A stretch of 64,000 nt of DNA from Bacteroidales bacterium (GTDB taxonomy: Bacteria > Bacteroidota > Bacteroidia > Bacteroidales > UBA12481). This document shows, piece by piece, positions 501-46,370 of the stretch. The DNA lies in assembly GCA_041662065.1 (NCBI GenBank), contig JBAZTE010000008.1, forward strand, positions 78,595 through 142,594, in the 5' to 3' direction. Every line of letters starts with the position of its first letter. Positions within the stretch are counted from its first letter, which is position 1. The notes under the pieces were generated by a model. That model was not told where the DNA came from and did no database searches. It saw only the letters and a program-made list of their open reading frames with translations. The position numbers and the translations under genes are program-made.

Positions 501-530
501 GCGTTTATTGATCTATAACGAATCAAACCT

Positions 531-600
531 CAAAGAAAATGATTCCCCCTGTTTAATCAAAGGGGAAAGTGATTAGTGGTCTGATAATAAGATAAGCGGA
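531..600 (-). promoter_or_regulatory. operator+promoter module copy 1 (direct repeats + -33 TTTG / -7-like box)
   Basis: The reverse complement reads tCCGCTTATCTtattatcagaCCACTAATCACtttccccTTTGattaaacagggggaatcatTTTCTTTG. Repeat starts are 20 nt apart. It sits 30 nt upstream of ATG 500. Confidence 0.65.
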
Positions 601-665
601 CTCTACCCAACTTTAATTTTGGACCGCTTATTACTAACAATAGGGACAATTCGTGTGATGCGATA

Positions 666-4284: not shown

Positions 4285-4399
4285 AGTTGTATGCCTATTC
4301 TACATTTTGTTCAAGTTTTCTGAACCATGCGTATGTTGATCTTCTACGAATTAACTTCAAAGAAAATGATTCCCCCTGTTTAATCAAAGGGGAAAGTTT
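4285..4399 (-). promoter_or_regulatory. operator-less paralogue of the copy-1 promoter/leader (promoter half only)
   Basis: By my hand alignment 4285-4399 matches 457-572 at about 85%, and the last 42 nt (4358-4399 vs 531-572) are identical. Where the two direct repeats should lie, the sequence is the 3' end of CDS 4380-5612. The copy of the small-ORF start (ATG 4328-4326) hits a stop after 5 codons. Confidence 0.55.
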
Positions 4400-7298: not shown

Positions 7299-7330
7299 AA
7301 CTTCAGGTTGTATTAATTGAATAATTGCCC

Positions 7331-7400
7331 CAAAGAAAATGATCCACCCTGTTCAATCAAAGAAGAAAGTGATTAGCGGTCAGAAAACAGGATATGCGGG
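7331..7400 (-). promoter_or_regulatory. operator+promoter module copy 3
   Basis: The reverse complement reads cCCGCATATCCtgttttctgaCCGCTAATCACtttcttcTTTGattgaacagggtggatcatTTTCTTTG. It lies 32 nt upstream of ATG 7298. Confidence 0.65.
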
Positions 7401-9908: not shown

Positions 9909-9945
9909 TTTTGCTTTTGTTTAATTGTTTAATTATTTAATGCCG

Positions 9946-10014
9946 CAAAGAAAATGATACCCTGAGTTTAATCAAAGGATAAAGTGATAGGCGGTCAGAT
10001 AAAAGGATTAGCGG
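9946..10014 (-). promoter_or_regulatory. operator+promoter module copy 4
   Basis: The reverse complement reads CCGCTAATCCttttatctgaCCGCCTATCACtttatccTTTGattaaactcagggtatcatTTTCTTTG. It lies 37 nt upstream of ATG 9908. Confidence 0.65.
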
Positions 10015-10019
10015 ATTCG

Positions 10020-17173: not shown

Positions 17174-17200
17174 AGCATTTTATTTAATTGAATAATGGAC

Positions 17201-17270
17201 GCGAAGAAAAGTATAACCCATTATCAATCAAAGGAGAAAGTGATAAGCGGTCAGATAATCGGATAAATGG
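17201..17270 (-). promoter_or_regulatory. operator+promoter module copy 5
   Basis: The reverse complement reads CCATTTATCCgattatctgaCCGCTTATCACtttctccTTTGattgataatgggttatacTTTTCTTCG. It lies 27 nt upstream of ATG 17173. The distal repeat is weaker. Confidence 0.6.
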
Positions 17271-17324
17271 TTTGGTTGGCAGTTATTTATTTTTCTTTTT
17301 GTTTTAGACCGCCTGGGGTTACCA

Positions 17325-19149: not shown

Positions 19150-19165
19150 TCATTGAATAATTCTT

Positions 19166-19235
19166 ACAAATAAAGTGATAAACTATTATCAATTAAAGGA
19201 TAAAGTGATAAACGGTCAGATAATAGGATAGGCGG
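19166..19235 (-). promoter_or_regulatory. operator+promoter module copy 6
   Basis: The reverse complement reads CCGCCTATCCtattatctgaCCGTTTATCACtttatccTTTAattgataatagtttatcacTTTATTTG. It lies 16 nt upstream of ATG 19149. The -33 box is TTTA rather than TTTG. Confidence 0.6.
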
Positions 19236-19245
19236 TGGTGCCTGT

Positions 19246-21072: not shown

Positions 21073-21143
21073 ATCGTTTTGTGTTTAAATTGCAGGCAAC
21101 CACTGCAACCCAGGTGGCCTGAGAACCATAGATTTGTTTTTTG

Positions 21144-21978
21144 TTATTTCTCATTTGAATTTTCAAGCGGTTTCCAATCTTTATAAATCATTTCAAAACC
21201 TGCACATATACTTTTAAATCCCAGTGAATTATGTGTTTCATTCTTATAGTGTATATAATCCCAGTTTAATCCCACTGGTGCGGATTTATCCAGCAGATCA
21301 ATAAATGGGAAGATCCCCATACCTTTTTCATTTGATAACGAGAGGAACAGTTTCTTTTTAATATCCTTGTGGCTATTAAAGAAATCTGGTATTTTCTTTA
21401 CATAGGATTGGTCTTCGTACCATAAACTTGGGTCGATGCAAATATACGAGTCGAACAGGCCGGGTTGGTTTACCAATGCATAAATGGCAAATAGTCCTCC
21501 GGCGGAATGTCCGATAATACATCGTTCTGAAGAGGCTTGATAGGTTGAATCAATGTAAGTTACTAACTCCGAACCAATGAAGTTAAGAAATTTGTCGGCT
21601 CCTCCGCCGGTAGGACACTCTTTAGAAGGGGATGGCAAATAATCTTTTTCCCTGTCAGTGGATACGATCCCAACAATGATCATCGGCGGCATGATTTTCA
21701 GCACCACAATAGTAATTGACTATTCCGTAAACGGCAAAGAGATTATTCCCAACATCTAAAACATAAACAACAGGAAATTTTTCTTCCGGGTTGTCCTTGT
21801 AATTAAATGATGGAATGACTATTACGGTTTTTCGTTCATTGAGAACTTTCGACTCATAGTGTATTTTGTCTCCGATGATTAAATCGCCATATTTTTCCTG
21901 GGCAAAGCAATTTCCGGATGGCAATATAGATATCAGTAAAAGGAAAACCAGAATATGGTTTGGTTTAATCGTTTTCAT
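21144..21978 (-). pseudogene. frameshifted esterase-family alpha/beta hydrolase (two ORFs: 21655-21978 and 21144-21707)
   Basis: The N-terminal ORF ends ...FPVVYVLDVGNNLFAVYGIVNYYCG. The C-terminal ORF, in the +1 frame, continues VLKIMPPMIIVGIVSTDREKDYLP...GHSAGG. Together they align colinearly with the paralogues (YPVLYMMDGE...IPEFIVVGIKNTNRDKDVYP). The frame switch is near 21705-21720. Confidence 0.7.
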
Positions 21979-26776: not shown

Positions 26777-26804
26777 AAGAGGTGTTAATTTTTAGAAACA
26801 ACAG

Positions 26805-26876
26805 CCATAAAAGAAGAGGACATTCAGGCGTTAGCAAAAGAGATTGTGATAAGCGGCAGAATAAGGTGATAAGCGG
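26805..26876 (-). promoter_or_regulatory. operator+promoter module copy 7 (embedded in the 3' end of CDS 26824-27921)
   Basis: The reverse complement reads CCGCTTATCACcttattctgCCGCTTATCACaatctctTTTGctaacgcctgaatgtcctcTTCTTTTATGG. The two 11-mers are perfect copies, 20 nt apart. Confidence 0.65.
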
Positions 26877-27921
26877 TTAGGATATCGTTGACACCCGACG
26901 GCTGCTCCCGGGTCAGGCACATCCACAATTCTTTCTTAACCAGGTTAATGCAAACGACTCCCTTTTCAAAAAAGGCAAATCCGAGAACTCCGCTAATCGG
27001 GTACTTATAGGCCATAGCGAGTGCATCCAGGTTGGCGATGATAGTTTGCATGGGATGCAGCTGTTGGCCACAGAGGGTAAAATCATTCATGGTTCCGTAC
27101 ATAACCTCCATCTGTCCCCTTCCTGAGCCTGTGAGATCGGCGCCGCTGGTGATCGTTACCGTATTCAGTACCTTTTTGGAAGAGGAGCTGCTGAGGACAT
27201 TTGCTTCAGCGCCTGTATCAAGACAAAAAATAGCAGATTTACCCCCAATGTTAGCAGGCATGAATACTACTCCGTCTACTTCCTTGATCGGACTAATCAG
27301 GGTTGTTTTCAGGGTATCGGCCTCCGCACCGATCCTTTTGCCTGACCTGTCTATCCGGTGGAGCCGCAATTCGCTCCGGTTTACATCGATCACTATTTCC
27401 ATGTCCCTGAACAGGTTCAGCCCGAACAATCCGAGAATTTTCACTCCACGGCGGTTCTCGATATGCTTAAGACTGATCACATCGGCCGGAACATTTTCAA
27501 AATATAGATCGGAAATATCGATCCTGGGTACACGGGTTTGATAAAGTTTTTCCGCACTCCCTGTTATGCCGCATGTTTTCGCATCAACCTCCCACAGGCC
27601 CTTCCGGAAATAGGTGTGGTTCAGCACCAGACTGCTGGCACCGGTGTCGAATACAAAATTACCGGTTTGATCACCAACCCTTGCTTCGATCAGGAATAGC
27701 TTTCCGACACGTTTCAACGGTATGGTTAGCGACTGAAAATCTCCCATCGGTTCCACGCCTGTATTCGATGAATTCCCGGTCAGTAGGCCCTGGTTAACCG
27801 ATATGAGCCCGGGATCTGGAGCTCCAGCCAGATAGGAACGGAAGGAGGTCAGTATCAGCAATATGGTCAGAAGCAGCATAGGACGGATCATCTTCCGGGA
27901 AAGGAAAAATACTTTAACCAA
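26824..27921 (-). CDS. secreted aspartic protease with two retropepsin-like lobes (365 aa)
   Basis: ORF track. It has two catalytic-type motifs, FVFDTGASSLVL and FCLDTGAEANVL, and an N-terminal signal/anchor. The last ~18 codons are encoded by module copy 7. Confidence 0.65.
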   Translation of the reverse strand: MVKVFFLSRKMIRPMLLLTILLILTSFRSYLAGAPDPGLISVNQGLLTGNSSNTGVEPMGDFQSLTIPLKRVGKLFLIEARVGDQTGNFVFDTGASSLVLNHTYFRKGLWEVDAKTCGITGSAEKLYQTRVPRIDISDLYFENVPADVISLKHIENRRGVKILGLFGLNLFRDMEIVIDVNRSELRLHRIDRSGKRIGAEADTLKTTLISPIKEVDGVVFMPANIGGKSAIFCLDTGAEANVLSSSSSKKVLNTVTITSGADLTGSGRGQMEVMYGTMNDFTLCGQQLHPMQTIIANLDALAMAYKYPISGVLGFAFFEKGVVCINLVKKELWMCLTREQPSGVNDILTAYHLILPLITISFANA

Positions 27922-31116: not shown

Positions 31117-31151
31117 TTTTCCTTGAGTTGTTTGTTTTATAAATTCAGTCT

Positions 31152-31220
31152 CAAAGGAAATGGACAACCAACCTTTATCAAAGGAGAAAGTGATAAGCGG
31201 TAGTATAAGGTGATAACCGG
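31152..31220 (-). promoter_or_regulatory. operator+promoter module copy 8
   Basis: The reverse complement reads CCGGTTATCACcttatactaCCGCTTATCACtttctccTTTGataaaggttggttgtccaTTTCCTTTG. It lies 35 nt upstream of ATG 31116. Confidence 0.65.
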
Positions 31221-31278
31221 TTTTAATACCAAAAGTATGAACATGCAAATTGTTTTCATTTTCTTCAGCAGTTGGTAT

Positions 31279-32820: not shown

Positions 32821-33732
32821 TCAGGCCCCGCCGATACTGACAATGCGGTTACCGTGCTCCAACGTATTTCTTAAACTTTCCAGATCCTCCGAATTCATTG
32901 AGGGAATTCCTGTCTGCACCTGATGCGTGTATATCGACTTTAGTTTGTCCTCCCCGAAACGGTGATAAGGCAATAAATGTATTTCTTTAGCAGCAGCAGT
33001 TGTAAGAAATTGATCCAGAAGCGATATCTTATCTGGTTCATAATTTATTCCCGGTATAATTGGAATGCGAAAAACAACATGACTTTTCTGTTCAATAAGT
33101 TTATACGCATTTGATAATATTCTAACATTATCTATACCCGTATTCGTTTTATGTAATACCGGATCAATACCTTTAATATCAAAATAGAAAATATCAACAT
33201 ATCTGGTCAGTAATTTTAGTTTATTCCAATGCAATATCCCGGAAGTTTCCAGAACAATGTGATAACTCTCGTTTTTCAATGCCTCCAGCAGATTCACAAG
33301 AAAATCGTATTGTAATGTTGGCTCTCCGCCTGAAATTGTTACACCGCCACCCGAACGTGAGTAAAATGAGGTTTCTTTTCTGATTTCAACCATGATTTCT
33401 TCGACAGTCATTTGTCTGCCTATCATTTCCAAGGCTTGCGACATACAAACTTCTGTGCATTTTCCGCAATTGTCACAAACCGCCCAGTCAATTCTATGGG
33501 TACTTTTCAGATCAATCACTTTGAGGGGACAGGCTTGCTGACATTTTTTACATGAAATACATTTGGATGCATGAAAGGATATCTGCGGCCAGGGATATAT
33601 CGACTCAGGATTTTCACACCAGAGACATCTCAAGGTACAACCCTTGAAAAAAATAACCGTCCGTATGCCCGGTCCGTCGGACAGACAATAATTTTGAATA
33701 TTGAAGATAGTGCCTTTCATGATTGATTTCAT
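32821..33732 (-). CDS. glycyl-radical enzyme activating protein (radical SAM, with two auxiliary 4Fe-4S motifs) (303 aa)
   Basis: ORF track. It has GPGIRTVIFFKGCTLRCLWCENPES (CxxxCxxC) plus CISCKKCQQAC and CDNCGKCTEVC. It overlaps the GRE stop by 4 nt. Confidence 0.9.
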   Translation of the reverse strand: MKSIMKGTIFNIQNYCLSDGPGIRTVIFFKGCTLRCLWCENPESIYPWPQISFHASKCISCKKCQQACPLKVIDLKSTHRIDWAVCDNCGKCTEVCMSQALEMIGRQMTVEEIMVEIRKETSFYSRSGGGVTISGGEPTLQYDFLVNLLEALKNESYHIVLETSGILHWNKLKLLTRYVDIFYFDIKGIDPVLHKTNTGIDNVRILSNAYKLIEQKSHVVFRIPIIPGINYEPDKISLLDQFLTTAAAKEIHLLPYHRFGEDKLKSIYTHQVQTGIPSMNSEDLESLRNTLEHGNRIVSIGGA

Positions 33733-36245: not shown

Positions 36246-37064
36246 CTATCTGCCTGGTACAATGGTAGTATCCCAAACATCGGAATAATAAATTCCGAAA
36301 TTCCCCAGTGCCCCGTTATCGAAATTGCCGATCGGGTTATAAGGTGTTGCCGAAATAAAACCAGGCAGGCCCATATCATTGATTTGTTCATAATAAGAAT
36401 AACTGACGGAATCAATGCATTGGAACTCCAGGCAAACGGTATCACCAAGCTGAAAATCATATTCATCAAGTGGCATGTTGACTTCAGCCCCGTCGAACGG
36501 CTGGTCATTGTTAATCGAAATACTTCCGGGCACTATCTTGCCATTTTTACTTACTTTAAACCGGTAGTAATTGGCTATTCCGGCCGGATCCTTCCACTTA
36601 GGGCTCAGGAGAAATACCAAGGGACTGTTTGGGCCGGGACCTCCGAAACCCATGACCACGTTCAGGCTGTCAAGGTTTACCCTTACCGGAACTTCAGTTT
36701 TCGCTAAGAAAATTTCTCCTGATGATAGGGTCACGCTGAGATTGAAAACATCACCCGGACTAACAGTTAAACCATTGGCAAAATAAAAACCCGGTGTATC
36801 CTCCGGTAAAGTTTTAATTAACCCTGATTTGTTCGTCAATTCAACTTTGGCGCCAATAATTTTTGGCAGGGACTCGGTATGGTAAAAATCGAGGGAATGA
36901 GTGAGGAAAACATTGCACTCGCCCCGACTGGCGTTCAATGTGGCATCTATCACTACCCGGGATGCTGAGTTCTTCAGGTCCAGCTTGATTACATCTTCGC
37001 ACGAAGTCAAAAATAGGACCGGAGCGAAAATCAGAAGAAACGGAATTATTAATAGTCTTTTCAT
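36246..37064 (-). CDS. DUF4249-type lipoprotein (usual partner of CarboxypepD_reg-type TonB-dependent receptors) (272 aa)
   Basis: ORF track. It has a lipobox LTSC, and its size and position directly after a TonB-dependent receptor fit. The family is assigned from memory of this gene pairing. Confidence 0.55.
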   Translation of the reverse strand: MKRLLIIPFLLIFAPVLFLTSCEDVIKLDLKNSASRVVIDATLNASRGECNVFLTHSLDFYHTESLPKIIGAKVELTNKSGLIKTLPEDTPGFYFANGLTVSPGDVFNLSVTLSSGEIFLAKTEVPVRVNLDSLNVVMGFGGPGPNSPLVFLLSPKWKDPAGIANYYRFKVSKNGKIVPGSISINNDQPFDGAEVNMPLDEYDFQLGDTVCLEFQCIDSVSYSYYEQINDMGLPGFISATPYNPIGNFDNGALGNFGIYYSDVWDTTIVPGR

Positions 37065-37070
37065 GTTTTG

Positions 37071-39407
37071 TTAGAATTTAAAGTTCCAGGTAATGGAGGG
37101 TACAATTCCAAAAAGTGACAGTCTCACGGCTTCGGTGGTTCCCGGCACAGTTTTACTTTCCCTGAACGAGATGCTGTAAGCGTTTTTCCGGTCATAGACA
37201 TTGTATACCGAAAAATTGATGTCGGAACCCCATCTTTTCTTTTGCTTAAACTGGTAGGTAATCCCCAGGTCAAGCCTGTGGTAGTCAGGCATCCTTGATC
37301 CGTTTCTTTCAGTATAAAGGTTGATGAGAACCCCATCCACCATGTATTTCCCACTAGGAAAAGTTACCGCATCGCCGGTATAATAGATCCAGTTTCCTGA
37401 TAAGGTCAGCCGTTGGGCGATCTGGTAAGAAGCCACGATTGAAATATTGTGGGTCCGGTCCTGCCGTGCTGAAAACCATTGACCAAAATTGATGCGTTCG
37501 AATTGCTTTTCAGATTTTGCCAGGGTATAACTGATCCAGCCTGTAAGTTTCCCGCTGGTTTTGCCTGCCGAGAATTCCAGTCCGTAAGCGCGACCCCTTC
37601 CAAATTCAAGCTCTCCTTCAATATTTGGGTTTAAAAAAGTATTGGCGCCGTTCTTATAATCTACCAGATTGCTGAGGATCTTATAGTATGCTTCCACACT
37701 AAGATCCCAGTTTTTCTTTGGCAGATTCTTGAAGTAGCCGACCGATACCTGATCGGCTGTAGTCGGTTTGATCAGAGGAGTGCTGGGGGTCCACAAATCG
37801 GTAGGTAAGCTGGATACTGAATTCGAAAGGATATGAAGGTACTGAAACATCCGGTTGTAACTTGCCTTGATCGAATTTGTGCTGTTAATCAGGTAGTTTG
37901 CAGTAATCCGGGGCTCAAACCCAATATAGGTATTGTAGAACTTCCCGGATGAATAGGCAACCGAGTCCAGGATTTCCTTATGATCATTATAAGTTTTTAC
38001 TGTGGTTGGTCCTATATTGTTAAACAGGCTCAACCTGAAACCATAATTCATGCTGAACGAATTGCTGATTTTCTGTTCATTGGACACATAGATGCCGCTC
38101 TCCAGGGCCTGCTGAGGCTCTATATGGAAAGAGGGCAGGGTTGTATTCGACTCATTGCCCGGAGTAAAGTTCCCGGCTTTAAACTGATGATAAGTCGAAT
38201 TCCATCCGAAGCGGACCTGGTTGCTGGTATTCGGATACCAGGTAAAATCCTGCTTCAGGCTGTAATCAAGGATCCCTGAGGTCAACTTGAATGAGAAATT
38301 CCCGGCAGCCGCCATGAATCCATAATTATAATCGCTGTAAATGGCTGAAGTATTTAAAAACAAAACCTGGTTAAAAGTATGGTTCCACCGGAGGGTGAGC
38401 GTATTATTACCGGAATCGAATCCGACCTGCTTTAGATCGAAAATGTCCTTTCCCATATAACCGGATAAAAAGAGCCGGTCCTTATCACCCAGGATATAAT
38501 TGGCCTTTAAATTTAAGTCGTAGAAGTAAAGGGTCAGGCCGTCAGCAAGGTTGCTTACCGCTTTTAGGGCCACATCGGCATAGGTGCGCCTGCCGCTGAT
38601 CATGATGGAAGACTTGTCTTTAACCAGAGGACCCTCCACGGTAAGGCGCGATGAAATCAGTCCGATGCCTCCGGTAACCCCCCATGACTTTGAGTTCCCG
38701 TCCCTCATCCGGATATCAAGAACAGATGAAACCCGGCCACCGTATGGAGCCGGAATACCCCCCTTGTACAGTTTTACATCTTTTATGGCATCGGAATTAA
38801 ACACCGAGAAAAAACCCAGAAGGTGGGATGCATTATATACCGGCGCTTCATCCAAAAGAATGTGATTCTGATCAGCTTCGCCTCCCCTGACAAAATAATT
38901 GCTGCCACCCTCACTGCTGGGGCTCACCCCTGGCAAGAGCTGAATAGCCTTAATAATATCCCTTTCGCCAAACAGCACAGGTACTAATTTCAATTGCTTG
39001 ATATCCAGCTTTATCGCACCCATTTCGAGACTCCTGACCGTATTTTTCATGCTTTTTCCGGTAATTTCCACGGTACCCAGCGAAGTGGCCTTTGGTTTGA
39101 GTTCCATATCCCTGTTAGTATCGGATTTCAGGTTCAGCTTCACTGCAACAGTCTCATAACCAAGATATGAGTATTGAATAGTATAATTTCCGGCCGGAAC
39201 TTTAACGGAATAAAATCCATATTGATTAGTAGTGGCCCCGGTATTCAGTTCAACAATCGCCACATTGGCAAATAAAAGGACTTCACCGTTCGCTGCATCC
39301 TTTATGTACCCGCTTAATGAGTACTGGACCTCTTTACCGGCGATCAGATTACAGGGGATCAGCCAAACAAAAGCGAACAGACAGAATAAGAGAAATTTTA
39401 ACTTCAT
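37071..39407 (-). CDS. TonB-dependent outer-membrane receptor with N-terminal CarboxypepD_reg-like domain
   Basis: ORF track (to 39458). The signal peptide MKLKFLLFCLFAFVWLIPCNLIAG argues for a start at 39407. It has a SGYIKDAANGEVLLFANV regulatory-like domain, a plug region (…RGGEADQNHILLDEAPVYN) and a C-terminal aromatic end ITWNFKF. Confidence 0.85.
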   Translation of the reverse strand: MKLKFLLFCLFAFVWLIPCNLIAGKEVQYSLSGYIKDAANGEVLLFANVAIVELNTGATTNQYGFYSVKVPAGNYTIQYSYLGYETVAVKLNLKSDTNRDMELKPKATSLGTVEITGKSMKNTVRSLEMGAIKLDIKQLKLVPVLFGERDIIKAIQLLPGVSPSSEGGSNYFVRGGEADQNHILLDEAPVYNASHLLGFFSVFNSDAIKDVKLYKGGIPAPYGGRVSSVLDIRMRDGNSKSWGVTGGIGLISSRLTVEGPLVKDKSSIMISGRRTYADVALKAVSNLADGLTLYFYDLNLKANYILGDKDRLFLSGYMGKDIFDLKQVGFDSGNNTLTLRWNHTFNQVLFLNTSAIYSDYNYGFMAAAGNFSFKLTSGILDYSLKQDFTWYPNTSNQVRFGWNSTYHQFKAGNFTPGNESNTTLPSFHIEPQQALESGIYVSNEQKISNSFSMNYGFRLSLFNNIGPTTVKTYNDHKEILDSVAYSSGKFYNTYIGFEPRITANYLINSTNSIKASYNRMFQYLHILSNSVSSLPTDLWTPSTPLIKPTTADQVSVGYFKNLPKKNWDLSVEAYYKILSNLVDYKNGANTFLNPNIEGELEFGRGRAYGLEFSAGKTSGKLTGWISYTLAKSEKQFERINFGQWFSARQDRTHNISIVASYQIAQRLTLSGNWIYYTGDAVTFPSGKYMVDGVLINLYTERNGSRMPDYHRLDLGITYQFKQKKRWGSDINFSVYNVYDRKNAYSISFRESKTVPGTTEAVRLSLFGIVPSITWNFKF

Positions 39408-39474
39408 GAATTTTTCAAATAAGTATTTAAGAAAGAAGGATATAGCAATTATTGCCATAAAAAAAATGAAACCG

Positions 39475-39543
39475 CAAAGGAAATGGACCTTCAGACTTTA
39501 ACAAAGGAAAATGTGATAAGCGGCAGTATAAGGTGATAGGCGG
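39475..39543 (-). promoter_or_regulatory. operator+promoter module copy 9 (between the LytTR gene stop and the TonB receptor)
   Basis: The reverse complement reads CCGCCTATCACcttatactgCCGCTTATCACattttccTTTGttaaagtctgaaggtccaTTTCCTTTG. The distal repeat ends 6 nt after the response-regulator stop codon (39550). Confidence 0.65.
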
Positions 39544-39549
39544 CTCTCC

Positions 39550-40272
39550 CTAAGCCAGATCTTTCAGTTTACCGGCAAACCTGCGGCTGATTTCCAGGGG
39601 TTGGGACAGGTTTTTTAAGTATGCCAGGTGAAGAGTGTTGGATTTCTTTTCAATACGATCGATATGGTCGATGTTAATAATGCACGACCGGTGAATCCTG
39701 ATAAAGTGATTGGCAGGAAGCTCTTCATTCCACTGTTTCAGTGTTTTCAATACGAGGGAGCACTTTCCTTCCAGGGTAGTGATCCTGGAATAATTCCCTA
39801 CCGGGCAAATATGGGTAATGGAACTGATTTTAATAAACGTTGATCTGGAATTTGTTAACCGCACATAAATGCTGTCGGAATATTCATAAACCTTGGTGGT
39901 CTTGTCAGATTCGGTTTTTGAAGTGAGAATACGGTCGAGCGAAGTCTTCAGCCGCTCTGGGCTTACCGGTTTCAGCAGGTAATCGGCAGCATTCACCTCA
40001 AAGGCCCGTATGGCATATTCGTCAAAGGCGGTCACAAAGATAATTTCGATGGAATTGTCGGTCATTTCCAGCAGATCAAAGCCGGTTTCCCCGTTGAGCT
40101 GAATATCGAGAAAGACCAACCCGGGCTTATACAGCCTGATCAATTCCACGGCGGTGCTGCACGAAGCGGCTTCTCCAATGATTTCGACACGCGGGTGCGA
40201 TTCAAGCAGTTTACGGAGGTTGACCCTCGCCAACCTTTCGTCATCGACAATAATGGCTTTCAGGGTTTTCAT
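39550..40272 (-). CDS. LytTR-family two-component response regulator (240 aa)
   Basis: ORF track. The receiver domain reads IIVDDERLARVNL...LVFLDIQL. The C-terminal LytTR-type segment reads FIRIHRSCIINIDHIDRIEK. Confidence 0.9.
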   Translation of the reverse strand: MKTLKAIIVDDERLARVNLRKLLESHPRVEIIGEAASCSTAVELIRLYKPGLVFLDIQLNGETGFDLLEMTDNSIEIIFVTAFDEYAIRAFEVNAADYLLKPVSPERLKTSLDRILTSKTESDKTTKVYEYSDSIYVRLTNSRSTFIKISSITHICPVGNYSRITTLEGKCSLVLKTLKQWNEELPANHFIRIHRSCIINIDHIDRIEKKSNTLHLAYLKNLSQPLEISRRFAGKLKDLA

Positions 40273-40274
40273 CT

Positions 40275-41414
40275 TTATGACTGATCAAATTCAATTTCAA
40301 TGGCGGCGGTCACCCACCCGTTATCGGCAGTAAGGGAAAAGGAATACTTATCGTTATAGAACAAGGCTAGGCGGTTCTTGATGTTCTCGATGCCGCTGCC
40401 CGTACCATTCGTGCCTGATTTATCCGTATTCAATTTACCGGTATTTATAACCTTAATCAAAAGCAGCTTGTGTTTCAATTCAGTCGTAAGACGGATAACC
40501 AGTTTTTGCTCATTCGACTTGATGCCATATTTCACGGCGTTTTCAACCAGCAGGTGAATCACAAATGAGGGGATTAATATTTCTCGCGTGGCTTCGGCGA
40601 CGGAAATCTCATATTCAAAATTCTCCTCAAAGCGTGTTTTCTGAATTTCGAGATACTTGACAACCGCTTCAACCTCTTTCCCCACAGAAATGGCCTGCTC
40701 CTGCTTGTTAAGGGTATACCGGTAATAATCCGACATATCTACCACCAGTTTCTTGGCTTTCTCTGTGTTTTCATCGATCAGCGCATGGATGGAATTCAGT
40801 ACATTAAATAAAAAGTGAGGGTTGATCTGGTAATGGAGCATTTTGAGTTGTACCTCTTTCGCCAGAGCCTCAGCTTTATGCATTTCATCTTTTTGTTTGG
40901 CAAACTTGAGCTGAAGGCGGGTAAGATAAAAGGTCGTACTTAGAAAAAGAATGGCTGCCATAAGCCCGGGCGAATATTTTTTCAGGACATCCAGTGTTAT
41001 CGGAGGTCGGTTGGTCCGGTACCAGAAAACAGTTTCGAGACCGGACGAAAAATAAATGAGAAGGGTTGGCCCGAAAATGGCAAAGACTAAAATCATGACA
41101 ATGAGCAGGGACACCCGTCTTTTTTTTATCGCCCATTTATAGGAAACGATCATCAGGAGAGCAAACGGTAATAAAGACAGAAACTCAAACAGTTGCTCCA
41201 ATAGTAAAATCTTGGTTTTGCCGGGGGTAGGCGGAAGCCAGGCCATCCAATCGAGGGTCCGGGTTATCTCGAGCAAAACCAGAACGATGAGCAGGTTGAA
41301 AAAATACGGGTACTTTTTGAAAAGCATGACAAACTTCCTAATATTCAGGCCAAATTTATGTATTTCCAAAACATTTAAAGGATTCTCGTTTGTGATAAGG
41401 GTAGTTTTTGACAT
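40275..41414 (-). CDS. membrane sensor histidine kinase of the LytS/YehU type (His_kinase + HATPase)
   Basis: ORF track (its TTG at 41417 is followed by ATG 41414). There are about 5 N-terminal TM segments. It has YQINPHFLFNVLNSIHALI (PF06580-type H region) and LLVENAVKYG (N-box). Confidence 0.85.
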   Translation of the reverse strand: MSKTTLITNENPLNVLEIHKFGLNIRKFVMLFKKYPYFFNLLIVLVLLEITRTLDWMAWLPPTPGKTKILLLEQLFEFLSLLPFALLMIVSYKWAIKKRRVSLLIVMILVFAIFGPTLLIYFSSGLETVFWYRTNRPPITLDVLKKYSPGLMAAILFLSTTFYLTRLQLKFAKQKDEMHKAEALAKEVQLKMLHYQINPHFLFNVLNSIHALIDENTEKAKKLVVDMSDYYRYTLNKQEQAISVGKEVEAVVKYLEIQKTRFEENFEYEISVAEATREILIPSFVIHLLVENAVKYGIKSNEQKLVIRLTTELKHKLLLIKVINTGKLNTDKSGTNGTGSGIENIKNRLALFYNDKYSFSLTADNGWVTAAIEIEFDQS

Positions 41415-41426
41415 CAAGACAGGAAA

Positions 41427-41759
41427 TCAAGACAGGAATTCACCGTCGATGATCAGTAATTTAACTGCTGTTTCGGCAATTGAACGGTGAGAGCTAAGTT
41501 CATCTGACACCACATAAGTCATTCCGGTGGTGAGGACAAATTTTTCACCGTTTTCCATCTCGCTTGTGAAATCTCCTTCCAGGCAATAGACTATATGCCC
41601 CTTATGACACCAGTGGTCGGCCACATAGCCTTTGGAATATTCCACGATCCTGATGCGTAATCCTTCAAATTGAACGGTTTGCCAAAAAGCAACTCCAGGT
41701 TCCCCCTGGTGTTCGGTCTTCGGAATGCTTGTCCAATCAATGGTCTGAAATGGTATCAT
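41427..41759 (-). CDS. small cupin-fold protein (110 aa), first gene of the kinase/regulator operon
   Basis: ORF track. Its size and beta-rich pattern, with VADHWCHKGHIVYCLEGD, resemble the single-domain cupin family with a DHCW-type motif. Confidence 0.55.
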   Translation of the reverse strand: MIPFQTIDWTSIPKTEHQGEPGVAFWQTVQFEGLRIRIVEYSKGYVADHWCHKGHIVYCLEGDFTSEMENGEKFVLTTGMTYVVSDELSSHRSIAETAVKLLIIDGEFLS

Positions 41760-41839
41760 CTTAACTGATTTTAACTGATGTTAAAGTTAAGTTTATCCAT
41801 ATTCAATTCGATCTGTTGTGTTGGGTGCCTACCGGCATC

Positions 41840-44800
41840 CTATATATCTTTGATACACCTGAATCCAATGGTGGAGGAACGCTCATACCCCTGTGATACA
41901 CGGAGCAGTTGTTGCCTGTTAATCAGTGGAAGTGGTCCACCTTTAACATACCACCAGCTGGAAAAGAGATCAAAATAACACCCCCCTTTAAGGATGACGT
42001 AATCGATTGTCCCTGATCGGTATAAATCATTCGTAAGCTGCCAGACAGATCCTGTTAAATCCAACAGTCCCAAGGGATTGGCGCCTTCTGGATAAGTTCC
42101 AACGGGATCCATCACTCCATTGCCTGGATTAGAATATTTTCCGCTCGAATCCGGCTCATTCCCCCAGGGCCACTTTATATTCTTACCTGCCTGGGCTGCG
42201 TATTGCCATTCCTTTTCGGTAGGGAGGCGTTTTCCGGCCCATTGAGCGTAAGCCCTGGCATCTTCATAAGAAACATAGGTAACGGGATAATCTCCCCGGC
42301 CCACTGGATAATTTCCCTTACTCCAATCCAACAGAAAGCGCTCGTCATCTTTGGGTTGATATCCCGATTCTTCCAAAAACTTCTTAAATTCCTTATTGGT
42401 TACCGGATGAATATCCATCAGAAAACTTTCCATCGAAAATGTTTTTCCCATATCGGCTACCGGGTGTTTTACAAACCAGTCGCCAACCTGGGCAGCCTTG
42501 AATAAAAACTTGCCGGCAGGAATAACCACCATACCGGGCTCACCTGGCTTACCGGGAACGGTTGGCTCCACTACACTTGCTATTCTGGGCTGCCTGTAGG
42601 GTATATTCAGGGTACATTGTTCAATAACCTGGTCTTCATTCAGGAGCTGTACAAGAAGATCACCTTCATATACCCCGATGTTATCCAGGAGTTTGACTTT
42701 AGCTTCTCGGGCGTTCAGCTGGATTGGCGGTAAATCCTGATCATCCCGGGCAATCACCCGGAAAGAGTTTCCGGCATTGGCAGTGAGTATTAGTAAATCC
42801 TGTTCTCCCCTTAATTCTGCTTTCATTACGGGGGATTCAAAGTTGCTCTTTCCTTGTGAAGAGAGATATTGGGCCGGCTTTTTTATTAGGGACAGTTCTC
42901 CCTCCACAATGGATTCATCAATGATCTGACTTCCGTCAAACAACTGAATGACAACATACCTGTCCTTGGGAATTTTGCTCTTATATGAATCCCCAGGGAC
43001 CAGGCCCTTCAATTCTTCCAGGGGTTCATTGCTGTAAGAAGGCAATCCTTCCCAAACCTTTATACAGTCACCCCGGTCAGCTGAAATTATCAGTTTACCT
43101 GAACCAGCGGATGAAACCTTAAGAATCTTCTCAAACTGCCCGATACAACCCGACTGACCTTCGTTATTGGTTTTCAGGTATGCCGGATTAAACTTTGCAA
43201 TATCTACGGGTGCAAACCATTTACCATCCATGTGCAGAGGTTCAATTTCCCGGTGGTTCCAAAGGTCAACCAAATGGGTTCCGGTTTCCGGATTAACTTC
43301 GAATAGAAGTCCCTGATATCCAGTGGGTAAAATACTGAACATCGTATAGATTATTTTGTTACCAAATTCCCAGGCGTTAACCCAGATGCTGTCTGTTACG
43401 GTAGGTAAAAGCGGGGTATAGTTACCCTCAATGAAATTATGGCTGCTTTCTCTTAGTATCCTGGCTGTACGTCCCAGGTAGCAATAACTGTCCTCAAGCC
43501 AATCAATATTTGGGTTAACAGATAAATGTATATCAACACCATAGCCATTGAAAAAAGCCAGGGAGAAATTCCTCAGCATGCTTTCTTTTTCAATTACTGT
43601 TTGCTGAAAGCATGCAAAATCCTGACGGATCAGCTTATTCAGATTTAAAACCGGGGGATACTCCAAAGCAGCATGCACACGTCCAACCACGCTGTTTTGC
43701 ATGTCTTTGGGCACGGGCATTCCTTCGGGAAATATTACGATCCCCATTTTATACTGATCAAGTTCCTTTTGCAATAAGCTGTCTCCTTCGCTTCTGGTAT
43801 CGTACATCAGGCCCCAGAGGTTGGCTGCCTGAATGGTTTTACCCAGTCCCTCCGCATGTTTTTCACTTCGCGTGCTGTTGTGCAGCTCTTTATATCCGGC
43901 GGGAAGATCCCAGGGGTTGTATGCTGTAATTATATGATTACCATGACTTAAGGCCTCGTCACTGATTTTTCGGAGCGTATCCGGACCTCCAGGCAGACTT
44001 CTAAGCAAATCGAACTGATTTCGCTGATCAATTCCCAGAACAGGAAAGCCATGCCAAAGCGTAATACAATCATCTCCACCGAACAGCTGACGCATCTTTT
44101 CCTCAAAGGCTCCAAAGGTATAGGCCCCTGTCTTGTAATCATAAAAATAGTTATACCAGACCTGTACAAAATGGGAAACATAGGCTTCGCGAATCCATTG
44201 TTGGTCTTCTCTTTGAATAAGGTGTTCATCAAACTGTCCGGGTTCAACATCGTAGAGCATACGATCCTTGAACATCAGCTTCAGGCCCGCCTGCCAGGTC
44301 CCGATGAATGAGTCCATCCACATACTGTACCGCAGTGATCCTCCGGGGTAAAGGGCCGTAGAAAACCTGCTTTTCCCGATTCGGCTGCTTTGATCGATAT
44401 CTCTCCGTGTTAAGGCAGCAATACTGTTTCCATTATCCACATTGACCACACTGAATCCCAGCTCCCAGGCATTATCAGGGACAATGACATTGAGTGGCTG
44501 GTAATCTGGCCTGAACAGGTGTGTCATAGAAAGTGAAGGCTTGCCGTAGGAGGTAATGTACACATGCCGGTCTGATTCACCGAACGGAACGATGTTTGAA
44601 ATTTGCAATGTATCATTCGTAAGGTTAAAAAAGGTAATTTCAAACTTTAGTCCCTTGCTGCAAGGTACCTGCAGGTAGGAGATTTTTACGCGATCAAAAA
44701 CACCTGAATTGTCGGTCGTTTGCCCGGCCAGAGTTGTTTTTTTCTCCCCATTTAGTTGGAATGAGATCAAAGGCAAAGGATAAGCAGCTTTCTGCCATCC

Positions 44801-44926
44801 GTTGAATCCGGCAATGGTAAATCCTTCATCCGTATTGACTGCAACTGATTTAAGGGCCTGCCCCATGGAACCGATGGCTGTCAACGCAAATAAAAAAGTC
44901 AAAAAAATACCTCTGATTACCCTCAT
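41840..44926 (-). CDS. secreted 1028-aa protein: large N-terminal domain of unknown function + C-terminal FGE-sulfatase (SUMF1/EgtB/PvdO-type) domain
   Basis: ORF track. It has a signal peptide (...IGSMGQA). The C-terminal ~230 aa contain MVVIPAGKF, HPVTNKEFKKFLEESGY, PVTYVSYEDARAYAQWAGKRLPTEKEWQYAA, GSVWQLTND and STIGFRC, which are hallmarks of the FGE-sulfatase fold. Confidence 0.75.
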   Translation of the reverse strand: MRVIRGIFLTFLFALTAIGSMGQALKSVAVNTDEGFTIAGFNGWQKAAYPLPLISFQLNGEKKTTLAGQTTDNSGVFDRVKISYLQVPCSKGLKFEITFFNLTNDTLQISNIVPFGESDRHVYITSYGKPSLSMTHLFRPDYQPLNVIVPDNAWELGFSVVNVDNGNSIAALTRRDIDQSSRIGKSRFSTALYPGGSLRYSMWMDSFIGTWQAGLKLMFKDRMLYDVEPGQFDEHLIQREDQQWIREAYVSHFVQVWYNYFYDYKTGAYTFGAFEEKMRQLFGGDDCITLWHGFPVLGIDQRNQFDLLRSLPGGPDTLRKISDEALSHGNHIITAYNPWDLPAGYKELHNSTRSEKHAEGLGKTIQAANLWGLMYDTRSEGDSLLQKELDQYKMGIVIFPEGMPVPKDMQNSVVGRVHAALEYPPVLNLNKLIRQDFACFQQTVIEKESMLRNFSLAFFNGYGVDIHLSVNPNIDWLEDSYCYLGRTARILRESSHNFIEGNYTPLLPTVTDSIWVNAWEFGNKIIYTMFSILPTGYQGLLFEVNPETGTHLVDLWNHREIEPLHMDGKWFAPVDIAKFNPAYLKTNNEGQSGCIGQFEKILKVSSAGSGKLIISADRGDCIKVWEGLPSYSNEPLEELKGLVPGDSYKSKIPKDRYVVIQLFDGSQIIDESIVEGELSLIKKPAQYLSSQGKSNFESPVMKAELRGEQDLLILTANAGNSFRVIARDDQDLPPIQLNAREAKVKLLDNIGVYEGDLLVQLLNEDQVIEQCTLNIPYRQPRIASVVEPTVPGKPGEPGMVVIPAGKFLFKAAQVGDWFVKHPVADMGKTFSMESFLMDIHPVTNKEFKKFLEESGYQPKDDERFLLDWSKGNYPVGRGDYPVTYVSYEDARAYAQWAGKRLPTEKEWQYAAQAGKNIKWPWGNEPDSSGKYSNPGNGVMDPVGTYPEGANPLGLLDLTGSVWQLTNDLYRSGTIDYVILKGGCYFDLFSSWWYVKGGPLPLINRQQLLRVSQGYERSSTIGFRCIKDI

Positions 44927-44983
44927 AATTTTCTGGTTTTTATTAAGCCGTCAAACGATTTCTTGAACGTTTATTCCACAGTA

Positions 44984-46216
44984 TCAGCGTATAGCATTAA
45001 ACATGGCCATAATATTCTCCGGGGGTACATTGGCCAGGATATTATGCACTTGCTGAAAAACAAATCCTCCGCCGGGAGAAAGAACCTCCACCTGTCTTTT
45101 TACGTGCTCGGATACCTGCCGGGGTGTTCCGTTTGGCAAAATCGACTGGGTATCGCAGCCGCCGCCCCAGAAAACAAGGTCTTTACCGAATTCGCGTTTA
45201 AGGCGTTCTGTCCCCATGTCGGTACAAATAAACTGAACAGGATTTATAGCATCCAATCCCGCTTCAATCATGTCGCCCAGCAAAGGATATACCCCTCCGC
45301 AACAATGCAGGCCTACTTTAATCCCGGGACAAAGCTCTTTTGCCTTGTTCCACAATAACTTATGGCGAGGCTTGAAAAACTCGCGGTAGATTTCCGGTGA
45401 AAATTGGGGACCTGTTTGTGTTCCCATATCATCACCAAAGCCGATAATATCTATATATGGGCCAACTGCGTTAAGATATTTCTCCAGGTTAGCGAGGTGG
45501 AGTTCCGTCAGTTTGTCCAGAAAAGTATGAATGCGATCGGGGGCAGACAGCAGCTGTACTAAGAAATTGTCTATCCGAAAAACAAATTGTCCATTCTCAA
45601 CCAGATTTCCTCCAAAAGTGCCATAAATGGCCCGGTCGGTACTTTCGCGTAATGCCTTTGCATGCTTCCTCCTGATCATCTGCCCCGCCCCGTCCAGTCC
45701 TGCGGGTGATGGGGGTGCTCCAAGACGAGCCCACATAACCTGTTTAAGGTAGTATTCAATCTTCTCAAAAGTATTATCTTCCTCATTATCACATAATGGA
45801 AAACAGGTCTGCTCAAAAAAGAGCATCCCCTTCTTTTGTATGCAAATAACCTGACCTTCATCACCGCGGACTACCCAACTATCGTTTTCTTTCTCCACTT
45901 CAATAAAAGCGGGTATTTTGCAGGGAGAACCATCCGGCAGATTCCAATCCTTCCAATAATCGTCGATTTTATAGTATCCATGTCCCACATTAACGACATC
46001 AGCTCCAATGATATCAAGCACGTCGTCCTCGATGCAGGCCAGTTGTTGAATAAAATCATAAACGTATAGTTTTGACGGTGGCAATCCCAGAAAACTCCGC
46101 AATTTCACATAAGCCTGTGCAGAAATACCACTTGAGCGGTGGCATCCGAAATCTATCGGAACCCTGTCAGGTTCAGAATGAGCGAAAGCGGCAAGAATTC
46201 TTTCTCTTGAGTTCAT
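44984..46216 (-). CDS. uroporphyrinogen-decarboxylase (URO-D)-family protein (MtaA/CmuA-like fold), function unknown
   Basis: The ORF-track ORF extends to 46486 and overlaps the upstream gene. The conserved N-terminus MNSRERILAAFAHSEPDRVPIDFG argues for ATG 46216. Confidence 0.65.
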   Translation of the reverse strand: MNSRERILAAFAHSEPDRVPIDFGCHRSSGISAQAYVKLRSFLGLPPSKLYVYDFIQQLACIEDDVLDIIGADVVNVGHGYYKIDDYWKDWNLPDGSPCKIPAFIEVEKENDSWVVRGDEGQVICIQKKGMLFFEQTCFPLCDNEEDNTFEKIEYYLKQVMWARLGAPPSPAGLDGAGQMIRRKHAKALRESTDRAIYGTFGGNLVENGQFVFRIDNFLVQLLSAPDRIHTFLDKLTELHLANLEKYLNAVGPYIDIIGFGDDMGTQTGPQFSPEIYREFFKPRHKLLWNKAKELCPGIKVGLHCCGGVYPLLGDMIEAGLDAINPVQFICTDMGTERLKREFGKDLVFWGGGCDTQSILPNGTPRQVSEHVKRQVEVLSPGGGFVFQQVHNILANVPPENIMAMFNAIR

Positions 46217-46370
46217 ATGGATAAACTGAAATTTAAGTGATACCTGATTTATTCTCCATTTCCTCCAAAGGTATGCTTCTGGTTTCAACAACAAAAAAAA
46301 AGTGGCGATCCTTTTGTTGCCGGAGCTCATCCAGTCTTCCTTGAAGCAAGGATCGTTCAACAAAAATGCT

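What the first reader, a model, noticed from the sequence alone, without database searches (positions are those of the whole stretch)
39475..41759. cupin - LytS-type kinase - LytTR regulator operon sits directly upstream of module copy 9: candidate cognate sensor/regulator
The three genes 41759->39550 are tightly packed (gaps of 12 and 2 nt). The regulator stop (39550) is only 6 nt from the distal repeat of module copy 9, so the two-component system is physically linked to one of its presumed targets. No module copy precedes the cupin gene itself (41760-41839), so autoregulation is not evident. The kinase has about 5 TM segments and no obvious extracytoplasmic domain, which suggests a membrane- or cupin-mediated signal. 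The small cupin as first gene may be a ligand-binding accessory. The only other regulator in the island is the membrane LuxR-type protein, whose HTH class normally binds inverted rather than 20-nt-spaced direct repeats.
Basis: inference. Interest (0 to 1): 0.7.

Follow-up and report, generated by a model that had tools for sequence, protein, structure and literature searches.

The report
Two-component regulator beside its own target promoters
A membrane sensor kinase and its LytTR-type DNA-binding partner sit right next to one of about nine near-identical promoter cassettes that they very probably switch on, and this pairing is kept across many related Bacteroidia; the small cupin gene in front of them is only a chance neighbour.

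Summary
The three genes exist as described. They are a DHCW-type cupin (41759-41427), a PF06580 histidine kinase and a REC+LytTR response regulator (40272-39550). The regulator's stop lies 6 nt from the distal repeat of module 9.

The main inference holds and is now backed in both directions.
- In 12 of 13 loci carrying an orthologue of this regulator (52-91% identity), the same module starts 3-40 nt after the regulator's stop. It was found in none of 71 loci with more distant LytTR regulators.
- A blind DNA-pattern scan of metagenomes gave 85 matches. In 29 of the 76 with enough upstream sequence, an orthologue of this regulator ends just upstream. The downstream genes belong to the same families as the window's module targets.
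- The module has fixed geometry: 12-nt repeat, 8 nt, 12-nt repeat, 7 nt, TTTG, 19 nt, TTyCTTTG. The repeat core ACCRCTNA equals the E. coli BtsR site core.

The secondary claims fail.
- The cupin is absent from every orthologous locus, even at 87-89% regulator identity (the 91% contig ends within the kinase gene).
- The kinase most likely starts at ATG 41327, so the cupin-kinase gap is 99 nt, not 12.
- The kinase has four transmembrane helices, not five, and lacks the LytS 5TMR-LYT and GAF domains.

This is an uncharacterised but ordinary kind of system. The signal is unknown.

The parts
41427..41759 (-). DHCW-motif cupin gene (110 aa). It is a neighbour, not part of the conserved system.
   Evidence: NCBIfam NF038084 scores 164 bits. 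The cupin is absent from all orthologous loci. Its homologues lie in unrelated contexts.
41413..41438 (-). Perfect 13-nt tandem duplication, TTCCTGTCTTGAT twice. It spans the cupin stop codon (41429-41427) and supplies the TTG (41417) and ATG (41414) that extend the kinase ORF.
   Evidence: Read directly from the sequence.
41351..41358 (-). TAAATTTG, a match to the Bacteroidetes -7 box TAnnTTTG. It begins 31 nt (and ends 24 nt) upstream of the conserved kinase start and is a candidate own promoter for the kinase-regulator pair.
   Evidence: Similar TAnnTTTG boxes lie at the same place in orthologues L003, L007 and L008. Taken alone the evidence is weak: the chance of a match in a 60-nt zone is about 2-4%.
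40275..41327 (-). Sensor histidine kinase of 350 aa counted from the conserved Met (the long ORF reaches 41414/41417). It has a four-helix membrane domain with outside loops of 6 and 10 residues, then an H-box (NPHFLFN) and a GHKL ATPase.
   Evidence: Pfam PF06580 scores 91.8 bits and HATPase_c_5 21.9 bits. The AlphaFold model has pLDDT 83-90 in the membrane domain.
39550..40272 (-). Response regulator with a REC domain (D10, D11, D56, T81 and K101 invariant in orthologues) and a LytTR DNA-binding domain.
   Evidence: Pfam Response_reg scores 72.9 bits and LytTR 68.2 bits. The best NCBIfam match is BtsR at 159.6 bits, below its cut-off of 246. Identity to E. coli BtsR is 32% over the full length.
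39466..39547 (-). Module copy 9. Distal repeat GCCGCCTATCAC (39544-39533), 8 nt, proximal repeat GCCGCTTATCAC (39524-39513), 7 nt, TTTG (39505-39502), 19 nt, TTCCTTTG (39482-39475).
   Evidence: The module is conserved at this position in 12 of 13 orthologous loci.
37071..39407 (-). TonB-dependent transporter (CarboxypepD_reg plus Plug domains). It is the first gene driven by module 9. The start at 39407 follows the gene call on the window's own contig copy.
   Evidence: It is the most frequent gene family downstream of regulator-adjacent modules (23 of 66).
36246..37064 (-). DUF4249 lipoprotein, the putative lid of the transporter.
   Evidence: Pfam PF14054. The lid role was proposed in bioRxiv 10.1101/2023.03.17.533168.
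31142..31223 (-). Module copy 8, upstream of a PD40/He_PIG protein with a T9SS sorting tail.
26797..26879 (-). Module copy 7, upstream of an operon encoding a PD40/He_PIG/T9SS protein, an esterase, an MBL hydrolase and a DUF5128 protein.
19156..19238 (-). Module copy 6, upstream of a zinc-ADH-like gene and an MBL gene.
17193..17273 (-). Module copy 5. Downstream lie a 207-aa unknown protein, DUF6567, two ADH-like genes, a C_GCAxxG_C_C gene, a cysteine desulfurase-rhodanese gene and a PQQ_2 gene.
9936..10018 (-). Module copy 4, upstream of two unknown proteins and an alpha/beta hydrolase.
7320..7400 (-). Module copy 3, upstream of a PD40/He_PIG/T9SS protein.
4353..4397 (-). Copy 2. It is the promoter half only (TTTG, 19 nt, TTTCTTTG) with no direct repeats, and it lies upstream of the membrane LuxR-type gene.
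525..602 (-). Module copy 1, upstream of a small ORF with a signal-peptide-like start (ATG at 500).

Best explanation
The kinase (40275-41327) and the LytTR response regulator (39550-40272) form a two-gene signalling unit, probably with its own promoter.

The kinase is a four-helix membrane sensor with no outside domain. It therefore most likely senses something in or at the membrane (inferred). It would phosphorylate Asp56 of the regulator (inferred from conserved residues).

Two regulator molecules would then bind the two 12-nt direct repeats (consensus ACCRCTTATCAY, 20-nt period). The repeats sit 7 nt upstream of the -33 TTTG of a weak Bacteroidetes-type promoter (-7 box TTyCTTTG instead of TAnnTTTG). 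Binding would activate that promoter (inferred from geometry).

About eight such operator-promoter cassettes drive a 40-kb island. Its genes encode a TonB-dependent transporter with its DUF4249 lid, T9SS-secreted PD40/He_PIG proteins, esterases, MBL hydrolases, quinone-reductase-like dehydrogenases and unknown proteins.

The first cassette directly follows the regulator gene, an arrangement conserved across Bacteroidia. A second, orphan kinase paralogue elsewhere in the same genome is itself behind a cassette. The response may therefore be reinforced through an inducible kinase rather than through autoregulation of the pair.

The cupin is not part of the system.
For: Regulator to motif:
- Of 13 distinct loci with a regulator orthologue (52-91% identity), 12 carry the module starting 3-40 nt after the stop. 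These are L001-L003, L005-L008, L011, L081, L083, L183 and the window. The gene downstream of that module differs between loci.
- L004 has a split kinase and a degenerate module.
- None of 71 loci with more distant LytTR regulators (38-53% identity), many of them Bacteroidota, has the module.

Motif to regulator:
- The DNA pattern alone retrieved 85 sites from metagenomes. Of the 76 with at least 300 nt upstream, 29 have a regulator orthologue of 58-73% identity ending mostly 29-41 nt upstream.
- Downstream genes are homologues of the window's module targets: transporter 23, the 207-aa unknown 9, PD40/He_PIG 13, ADH 3, MBL 1.

Architecture:
- Tandem direct repeats about two helical turns apart are the known LytTR operator type (PMC4847170).
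- The geometry 12-8-12-7-TTTG-19-TTyCTTTG is fixed in the window's copies and in the ungapped consensus of 113 unique modules.

Specificity:
- The regulator's best characterised relative is BtsR.
- The E. coli BtsR site oligonucleotide reads ACCGCTTA-N13-ACCACTCA (PMC4847170 Table 1). This is the same ACCRCTNA core.
- An Acidobacteriota homologue (51% identity) has three ACCRCTAAT repeats at a 20-nt period upstream of its operon.

Other points:
- The catalytic and phospho-acceptor residues are conserved.
- Orphan kinase paralogues (62% identity) lie behind modules in L184 (same assembly) and L081.
Against: - No binding, expression or phosphotransfer data exist. Everything rests on sequence and co-occurrence.
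- Bacteroidia genomes carry many kinase/LytTR pairs (a second pair lies about 9 kb upstream in L083). A paralogue with similar specificity therefore cannot be formally excluded.
- Adjacency could partly reflect inherited synteny.
- The metagenome consensus is biased by the search pattern.
- Activation rather than repression is inferred only from the position upstream of -33 and the imperfect -7 box.
- The regulator is only 32% identical to BtsR, so the shared core could be partly coincidental.
- The signal is unknown.
Confidence: 0.8

Rival explanations
1. Cupin, kinase and regulator form one operon, and the cupin is a ligand-binding co-sensor for the kinase.
For: All three genes are on the same strand. 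With the longest ATG ORF the gap is only 12 nt. No convincing terminator lies between them; there is only a weak 5-bp hairpin at 41447-41431. One cupin homologue (L090) has a kinase/LytTR pair next door, but in convergent orientation.
Against: - The cupin is absent upstream of the kinase in every orthologous locus, including those at 87% and 89% regulator identity.
- Cupin homologues of 81-84% identity lie in five unrelated contexts.
- Orthologous kinases start at the Met equivalent to 41327.
- The upstream start codons arise from a 13-nt duplication.
- A -7-type box lies in the gap.
Confidence: 0.08
2. The modules are controlled by a different regulator, either another LytTR paralogue or the membrane LuxR-type protein at 3163-4281. 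The regulator gene lies next to module 9 only through inherited gene order.
For: Many paralogous kinase/LytTR pairs exist in these genomes. The LuxR-type gene lies in the island, behind a promoter-only copy of the module.
Against: - Adjacency of regulator and module is kept while the downstream gene changes between a transporter, a PD40 protein, the 207-aa unknown and others.
- The LuxR-type protein has no homologue in any of the 93 module-bearing loci.
- Direct repeats at a 20-nt period fit LytTR regulators, not LuxR-type HTH proteins (PMC4847170).
- Loci of more distant LytTR paralogues never carry the module.
Confidence: 0.1
3. The modules are copies of a small mobile or duplicated promoter cassette with no dedicated regulator. 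The repeats would be structural parts of the cassette.
For: Copies within the window are very alike, even in the spacer between -33 and -7 (GATTAAACAGGGGGAATCA in copies 1, 2 and 3). One copy (4353-4397) is a truncated promoter half.
Against: - Across genera the repeats and the promoter boxes are conserved while the spacer varies (consensus of 113 modules).
- There are no terminal inverted repeats or target-site duplications.
- Modules always lie in the sense orientation, directly upstream of genes from a recurrent set of families.
- The modules are tightly linked to one regulator orthologue group.
Confidence: 0.04

Closest known systems
BtsS/BtsR (YehU/YehT) pyruvate-sensing LytS/LytTR system of E. 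coli
   Same: - The regulator has the same REC+LytTR architecture and is 32% identical over its full length. BtsR is its best NCBIfam match.
- The kinase core is homologous, with 30% identity over the H-box and ATPase.
- The operator consists of two direct repeats about two helical turns apart with the same core: E. coli ACCGCTTA-N13-ACCACTCA (PMC4847170 Table 1) against ACCRCTTATCAY at a 20-nt period here.
   Different: - The BtsR score of 159.6 bits is below the equivalog cut-off of 246.
- The sensor domain is unrelated: four TM helices against the seven-TM 5TMR-LYT plus GAF input of BtsS (PMC10653868).
- The period is 20 nt rather than 21 nt.
- There are at least 8 target promoters instead of one, and no CstA/BtsT-type transporter among the targets.
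- The promoter is of the Bacteroidetes type.
AgrC/AgrA, ComD/ComE and PlnB/PlnC-type LytTR systems of Firmicutes
   Same: A LytTR regulator binds tandem direct repeats just upstream of the promoter and activates it. The target promoter lies next to the regulator's own locus.
   Different: Those systems are peptide quorum sensors with 6-7 TM kinases of another kinase family, and they autoregulate their own operon. Here there is no peptide gene, no autoregulated operon and a PF06580 kinase.
Intramembrane-sensing histidine kinases (BceS/LiaS type)
   Same: The membrane input is very short with minimal outside loops, which suggests sensing in the membrane or through a partner protein. The orphan kinase paralogue L184 lies between MacB/FtsX-type ABC exporter genes.
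   Different: The kinase family differs (PF06580 rather than HisKA_3). There are four TM helices rather than two. No conserved transporter partner was shown here.
TonB-dependent transporter plus DUF4249 lid pairs of Bacteroides (BT2172/BT2173)
   Same: The conserved first target operon is a non-SusC transporter followed by a DUF4249 lipoprotein (bioRxiv 10.1101/2023.03.17.533168).
   Different: The regulation of such pairs has not been described in the papers found. Their substrate is unknown.

Membership tests
LytTR-family response regulator | [quoted passage not shown] | tested here: met
   Pfam Response_reg scores 72.9 bits. D10, D11, D56, T81 and K101 are invariant in 10 orthologues.
LytTR-family response regulator | C-terminal LytTR DNA-binding domain (PF04397) | tested here: met
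   68.2 bits against a cut-off of 22.6, covering residues 143-239.
LytTR-family response regulator | Operator made of two 9-11-nt direct repeats about two helical turns apart, next to the promoter | tested here: met
   12-nt repeats at a 20-nt period lie 7 nt upstream of -33. They are linked to the regulator in both search directions. Physical binding cannot be tested with these tools.
BtsS/BtsR (YehU/YehT) equivalog | Regulator reaches the NCBIfam BtsR equivalog score | tested here: not met
   159.6 bits against a cut-off of 246. Identity to E. coli BtsR is 32%.
BtsS/BtsR (YehU/YehT) equivalog | Kinase with a 5TMR-LYT membrane domain and a GAF domain | tested here: not met
   No Pfam hit other than His_kinase and GHKL. 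Only residues 151-335 align to BtsS. The model has four TM helices.
BtsS/BtsR (YehU/YehT) equivalog | Target is a CstA-family pyruvate transporter (btsT) | tested here: not met
   No gene behind a module in the window has a CstA domain.
LytS-type histidine kinase | PF06580 His_kinase dimerisation/phospho-acceptor domain plus a GHKL ATPase | tested here: met
   PF06580 scores 91.8 bits. HATPase_c_5 scores 21.9 bits, just under its cut-off of 22. The NPHFLFN H-box and the N and G boxes are invariant in 30 homologues.
LytS-type histidine kinase | 5TMR-LYT input domain | tested here: not met
DHCW-motif cupin (NF038084) | Score above the family cut-off | tested here: met
   164.1 bits against a cut-off of 70. 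The function of the family is unknown.
Bacteroidetes primary-sigma promoter (-33 TTTG, -7 TAnnTTTG; established knowledge, Bayley et al. 2000, recalled not re-read) | TTTG, a spacer of about 19 nt, then TAnnTTTG | tested here: inconclusive
   TTTG and the 19-nt spacer are present in 7 of 8 copies. The -7 box reads TTyCTTTG, with T instead of A at position 2. This fits a weak, activator-dependent promoter. Transcription start sites were not mapped.

The most novel reading that the evidence does not exclude
This may be the founding example of a Bacteroidia-wide, so far undescribed regulon.

A four-helix membrane kinase and a BtsR-like LytTR regulator would control, through a rigid operator-promoter cassette, three kinds of target: a TonB transporter with its DUF4249 lid, T9SS-secreted beta-propeller/Ig proteins, and a set of hydrolases and reductases. 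The regulator would also induce a second, orphan sensor kinase, giving a feed-forward loop instead of classical autoregulation.

The operator core ACCRCTNA is shared with E. coli BtsR and an Acidobacteriota homologue. That would mean LytTR recognition specificity has been conserved across phyla despite about 30% protein identity.
Probability: 0.45. Interest if true: 0.55.

Novelty: new member of a known kind. Interest (0 to 1): 0.45.

Why it matters
Kinase/LytTR pairs of this short-sensor type are very numerous in Bacteroidota. I found no characterised example in the literature searched.

This locus offers a precise operator, a fixed promoter geometry, a conserved core regulon and a conserved regulator-operator adjacency. 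That makes the system directly testable by gel shift, DAP-seq or a reporter assay. It also gives a handle on the regulation of the uncharacterised transporter/DUF4249 pairs and of a family of T9SS cargo proteins.

It does not reveal a new regulatory principle.

Tried and rejected
- A PDB sequence search with the regulator returned only receiver-domain hits and nothing useful for the LytTR domain.
- Kraxenberger et al. 2012, the source of the BtsR motif, is not held. The motif wording ACC[G/A]CT[C/T]A with a 13-bp spacer is from my memory. The site sequence itself was taken from the oligonucleotide table of PMC4847170.
- Searches for 'DHCW motif cupin' and for LytTR in Bacteroidota gave nothing relevant to function.
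- The half-site-like ACCCTTATCAC at 41395-41385 upstream of the kinase was considered as an autoregulatory site. I rejected it because there is no partner repeat and no conservation in orthologues.
- TAnnTTTG is not enriched in the window overall: 48 sites, about as many as chance predicts. The box upstream of the kinase is therefore only weak evidence on its own.
- The sigma-70 consensus scan is uninformative for this phylum.
- The L062 core-pair hit lies inside a coding region and was dismissed as chance.
Full report
**What is there**

On the minus strand the window carries three ORFs.
- 41759-41427 encodes a 110-aa protein. It matches NCBIfam NF038084, 'DHCW motif cupin fold protein', at 164 bits against a cut-off of 70.
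- An ORF from 41417 (TTG) or 41414 (ATG) to 40275 carries Pfam His_kinase PF06580 (91.8 bits) and a GHKL ATPase domain.
- 40272-39550 encodes Response_reg plus LytTR (72.9 and 68.2 bits).

The regulator's stop is 6 nt from CCGCCTATCAC (39543-39533). A second copy, CCGCTTATCAC, lies 20 nt further on at 39523-39513. The motif is far above chance in the window: 12 matches with at most 1 mismatch against 0.64 expected.

A profile built from the copies finds eight full modules and one promoter-only copy. All are on the minus strand and all lie below 39547, with none upstream of the cupin. The rest of the window above 49 kb is housekeeping: rpe, a primary sigma factor, rho, PFOR, PEPCK and def.

**Anatomy of the module**

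In the window the geometry is nearly invariant. It runs 12-nt repeat, 8 nt, 12-nt repeat, 7 nt, TTTG, 19 nt, TTyCTTTG, with the downstream gene starting 13-40 nt later.

TTTG followed 19 nt later by xxxxTTTG is the layout of the Bacteroidetes primary-sigma promoter (-33 TTTG, -7 TAnnTTTG; established knowledge). Here the -7 box has T instead of A at its second position. An activator-dependent promoter would be expected to look like this.

Two direct repeats about two helical turns apart, abutting the -33 element, are the standard operator layout for LytTR regulators. PMC4847170 describes repeats of 9-11 nt with spacers of 11-13 nt.

**Test 1: from the regulator to the motif**

A search of 185,579 species-representative genomes with an alignment of regulator orthologues returned 80 loci. 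Further loci came from exact-protein look-ups.
- All loci whose regulator is 52-91% identical carry a module beginning 3-40 nt after the regulator's stop. These are L001-L003, L005-L008, L011, L081, L083 and L183. In L007 and L008 the distal repeat overlaps the last codons.
- The one exception, L004, has a split kinase gene, a truncated second regulator copy and a degenerate module. It looks like a decaying locus.
- None of the 71 loci with more distant LytTR regulators has a module. These are 38-53% identical and come from Cytophagales, Chitinophagaceae, Flavobacteriales, Ignavibacteria, Acidobacteriota and others.
- The gene behind the regulator-adjacent module differs between loci. It is a TonB-dependent transporter plus DUF4249 in the window, L003, L005, L006 and L011. 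It is a PD40/He_PIG/T9SS protein in L001, L002, L081 and L083, and other genes in L007 and L008. The conserved unit is therefore regulator plus operator, not a frozen gene block.

**Test 2: from the motif to the regulator**

The pattern CCRCTNATCAY-N9-CCRCTNATCAY-N7-TTTG, scanned blindly over 241 million metagenome records, gave 85 sites in 80 returned loci.
- Of the 76 sites with at least 300 nt of upstream sequence, 29 have an orthologue of this regulator (58-73% identity) ending just upstream, mostly 29-41 nt away.
- The first downstream genes are homologues of the window's own module targets: transporter 23, the 207-aa unknown protein 9, PD40/He_PIG 13, ADH-like 3, MBL 1.
- Across all module-bearing loci the recurrent families are the transporter/DUF4249 pair, PD40/He_PIG, zinc-ADH-like, the 207-aa protein, MBL, esterase, DUF5128, cysteine desulfurase-rhodanese and C_GCAxxG.
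- The cupin, the LuxR-type protein, the FGE-sulfatase protein and the glycyl-radical enzyme never recur.
- The ungapped consensus of 113 unique modules is aACCaCTTATCAtaTTATctGACCgCTnATCAtaTTttcCTTTGAT-(19)-TTtCTTTG. The positions fixed by the search pattern are of course biased.

**Specificity lead**

The regulator's best characterised relative is E. coli BtsR. NCBIfam gives 159.6 bits, below the equivalog cut-off of 246, and identity is 32% over the full length.

The BtsR binding-site oligonucleotide printed in PMC4847170 reads ...GACCGCTTACATCCCTAAAATAACCACTCAG..., that is ACCGCTTA-N13-ACCACTCA. This is the same ACCRCTNA core as here, at a 21-nt rather than a 20-nt period.

An Acidobacteriota homologue (L009, 51% identity) has three ACCRCTAAT repeats at a 20-nt period upstream of its small-ORF-kinase-regulator operon.

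These resemblances support the view that this clade of LytTR domains reads ACCRCTNA. They are a lead, not proof.

**The kinase**

Orthologous kinases are almost all 350-357 aa. They begin at the Met that is residue 31 of the window's long ORF, ATG 41327. Only the 87%-identity relative L081 has a short extension.

The window's upstream TTG and ATG lie at the end of the second copy of a perfect 13-nt tandem duplication, TTCCTGTCTTGAT twice (41438-41413). The first copy contains the cupin stop codon.

The 99 nt between the cupin stop and ATG 41327 contain TAAATTTG (41358-41351). Several orthologues have a TAnnTTTG box at the equivalent place.

Hydropathy of ten orthologues and an AlphaFold model agree on four membrane helices: 7-30, 37-68, 72-101 and 112-165. 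The model was built from 30 sequences and has pLDDT 83-90 in the membrane part. The outside loops are 6 and 10 residues long, and the fourth helix continues into the H-box helix.

There is no 5TMR-LYT or GAF domain. Only the catalytic core aligns with BtsS. The kinase is therefore of the LytS/YehU catalytic family but is not a LytS-type sensor. It looks like an intramembrane or partner-dependent sensor.

**The cupin**

The cupin is not present next to the kinase in any orthologous locus. At 87% regulator identity the upstream gene is a second kinase, at 89% a CitMHS transporter, and at 79% a divergent DUF4185 gene.

Cupin homologues of 81-84% identity lie in five unrelated neighbourhoods. Only one (L090) happens to have a convergent kinase/LytTR pair beside it.

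The triad is therefore a lineage-specific juxtaposition.

**An extra finding**

The same assembly contains an orphan paralogue of the kinase, 62% identical and with no adjacent regulator. It lies between MacB/FtsX exporter genes and has a module directly upstream (L184 7509-7587).

In L081 a comparable paralogue, also behind a module, sits immediately upstream of the kinase-regulator pair.

However, the regulon includes a second sensor kinase, which suggests feed-forward reinforcement.

**Mechanism proposed**

*Shown:*
- domain content;
- conserved catalytic residues;
- fixed operator-promoter geometry;
- two-way co-occurrence of regulator and module.

*Inferred:*
- the kinase phosphorylates D56;
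- two regulator molecules bind the repeats and recruit RNA polymerase to a weak promoter;
- about eight operons respond together;
- basal expression of the transporter operon may also come from read-through, since no terminator separates the regulator from module 9.

The signal is unknown. The regulon's content includes an outer-membrane uptake pair, secreted propeller proteins, esterases, MBL hydrolases, quinone-reductase-like enzymes and, in relatives, peroxiredoxins. This content suggests a response to an external organic compound or to envelope stress, but that is speculation.

**Verdict**

The headline inference is well supported. The cupin part and the 'LytS-type, about 5 TM, tightly packed operon' details are not.

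This is a new, uncharacterised member of a known kind of system, and it now has a precisely defined operator and core regulon.

Noticed in passing
window 41413-41438: There is a perfect 13-nt tandem duplication, TTCCTGTCTTGAT twice, at the cupin/kinase junction. The first copy holds the cupin stop codon. The second supplies the TTG/ATG that lengthen the kinase ORF by 29-30 codons.
   Followed up: partly
L184 7509-7587 and 7637-8728 (same assembly as the window); L081 7494-7571 and 7599-8726: An orphan paralogue of the kinase (62% identity, no partner regulator) lies directly behind a module. In L184 it sits between MacB/FtsX ABC exporter genes. This suggests a regulator-induced second sensor.
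   Followed up: partly
window 4353-4397: This is a promoter-only copy of the module: TTTG, 19 nt, TTTCTTTG, nearly identical to copy 1 but without the direct repeats. It lies upstream of the membrane LuxR-type gene (3163-4281).
   Followed up: partly
L009 8291-8340: An Acidobacteriota homologue of the system (regulator 51% identical) has three ACCRCTAAT repeats at a 20-nt period. They lie upstream of a small secreted-protein gene followed by the kinase and regulator.
   Followed up: partly
window 32821-36203: A glycyl-radical enzyme (PFL-like, 824 aa) and its radical-SAM activase lie in the operon behind module 9, after the transporter/DUF4249 pair. They do not recur in any other module-bearing locus. 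Their substrate is unknown: the enzyme scores below all NCBIfam equivalog cut-offs.
   Followed up: no
window 5829-7298, 25301-26776, 29638-31248: Three paralogous proteins with PD40 repeats, a He_PIG Ig domain and a T9SS sorting tail each sit directly behind a module. The same family is the second most common module target in other genomes.
   Followed up: partly
window 20245-21707: Two adjacent 'Putative esterase' ORFs are present. The second (21144-21707, GTG start) covers only part of the domain and is followed by a 470-nt gap up to 22176. It may be a disrupted gene.
   Followed up: no
L004 8930-11403: In this orthologous locus the kinase is split into two ORFs, a truncated second regulator copy follows the first, and the module is degenerate. 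It looks like a decaying copy of the system.
   Followed up: no
window 41840-48407: Upstream of the cupin, on the same strand, lie a 1028-aa protein with a C-terminal FGE-sulfatase domain, a URO-D/MtaA-like protein and a GH36/melibiase-like protein. None has a module and none recurs with the regulator.
   Followed up: no
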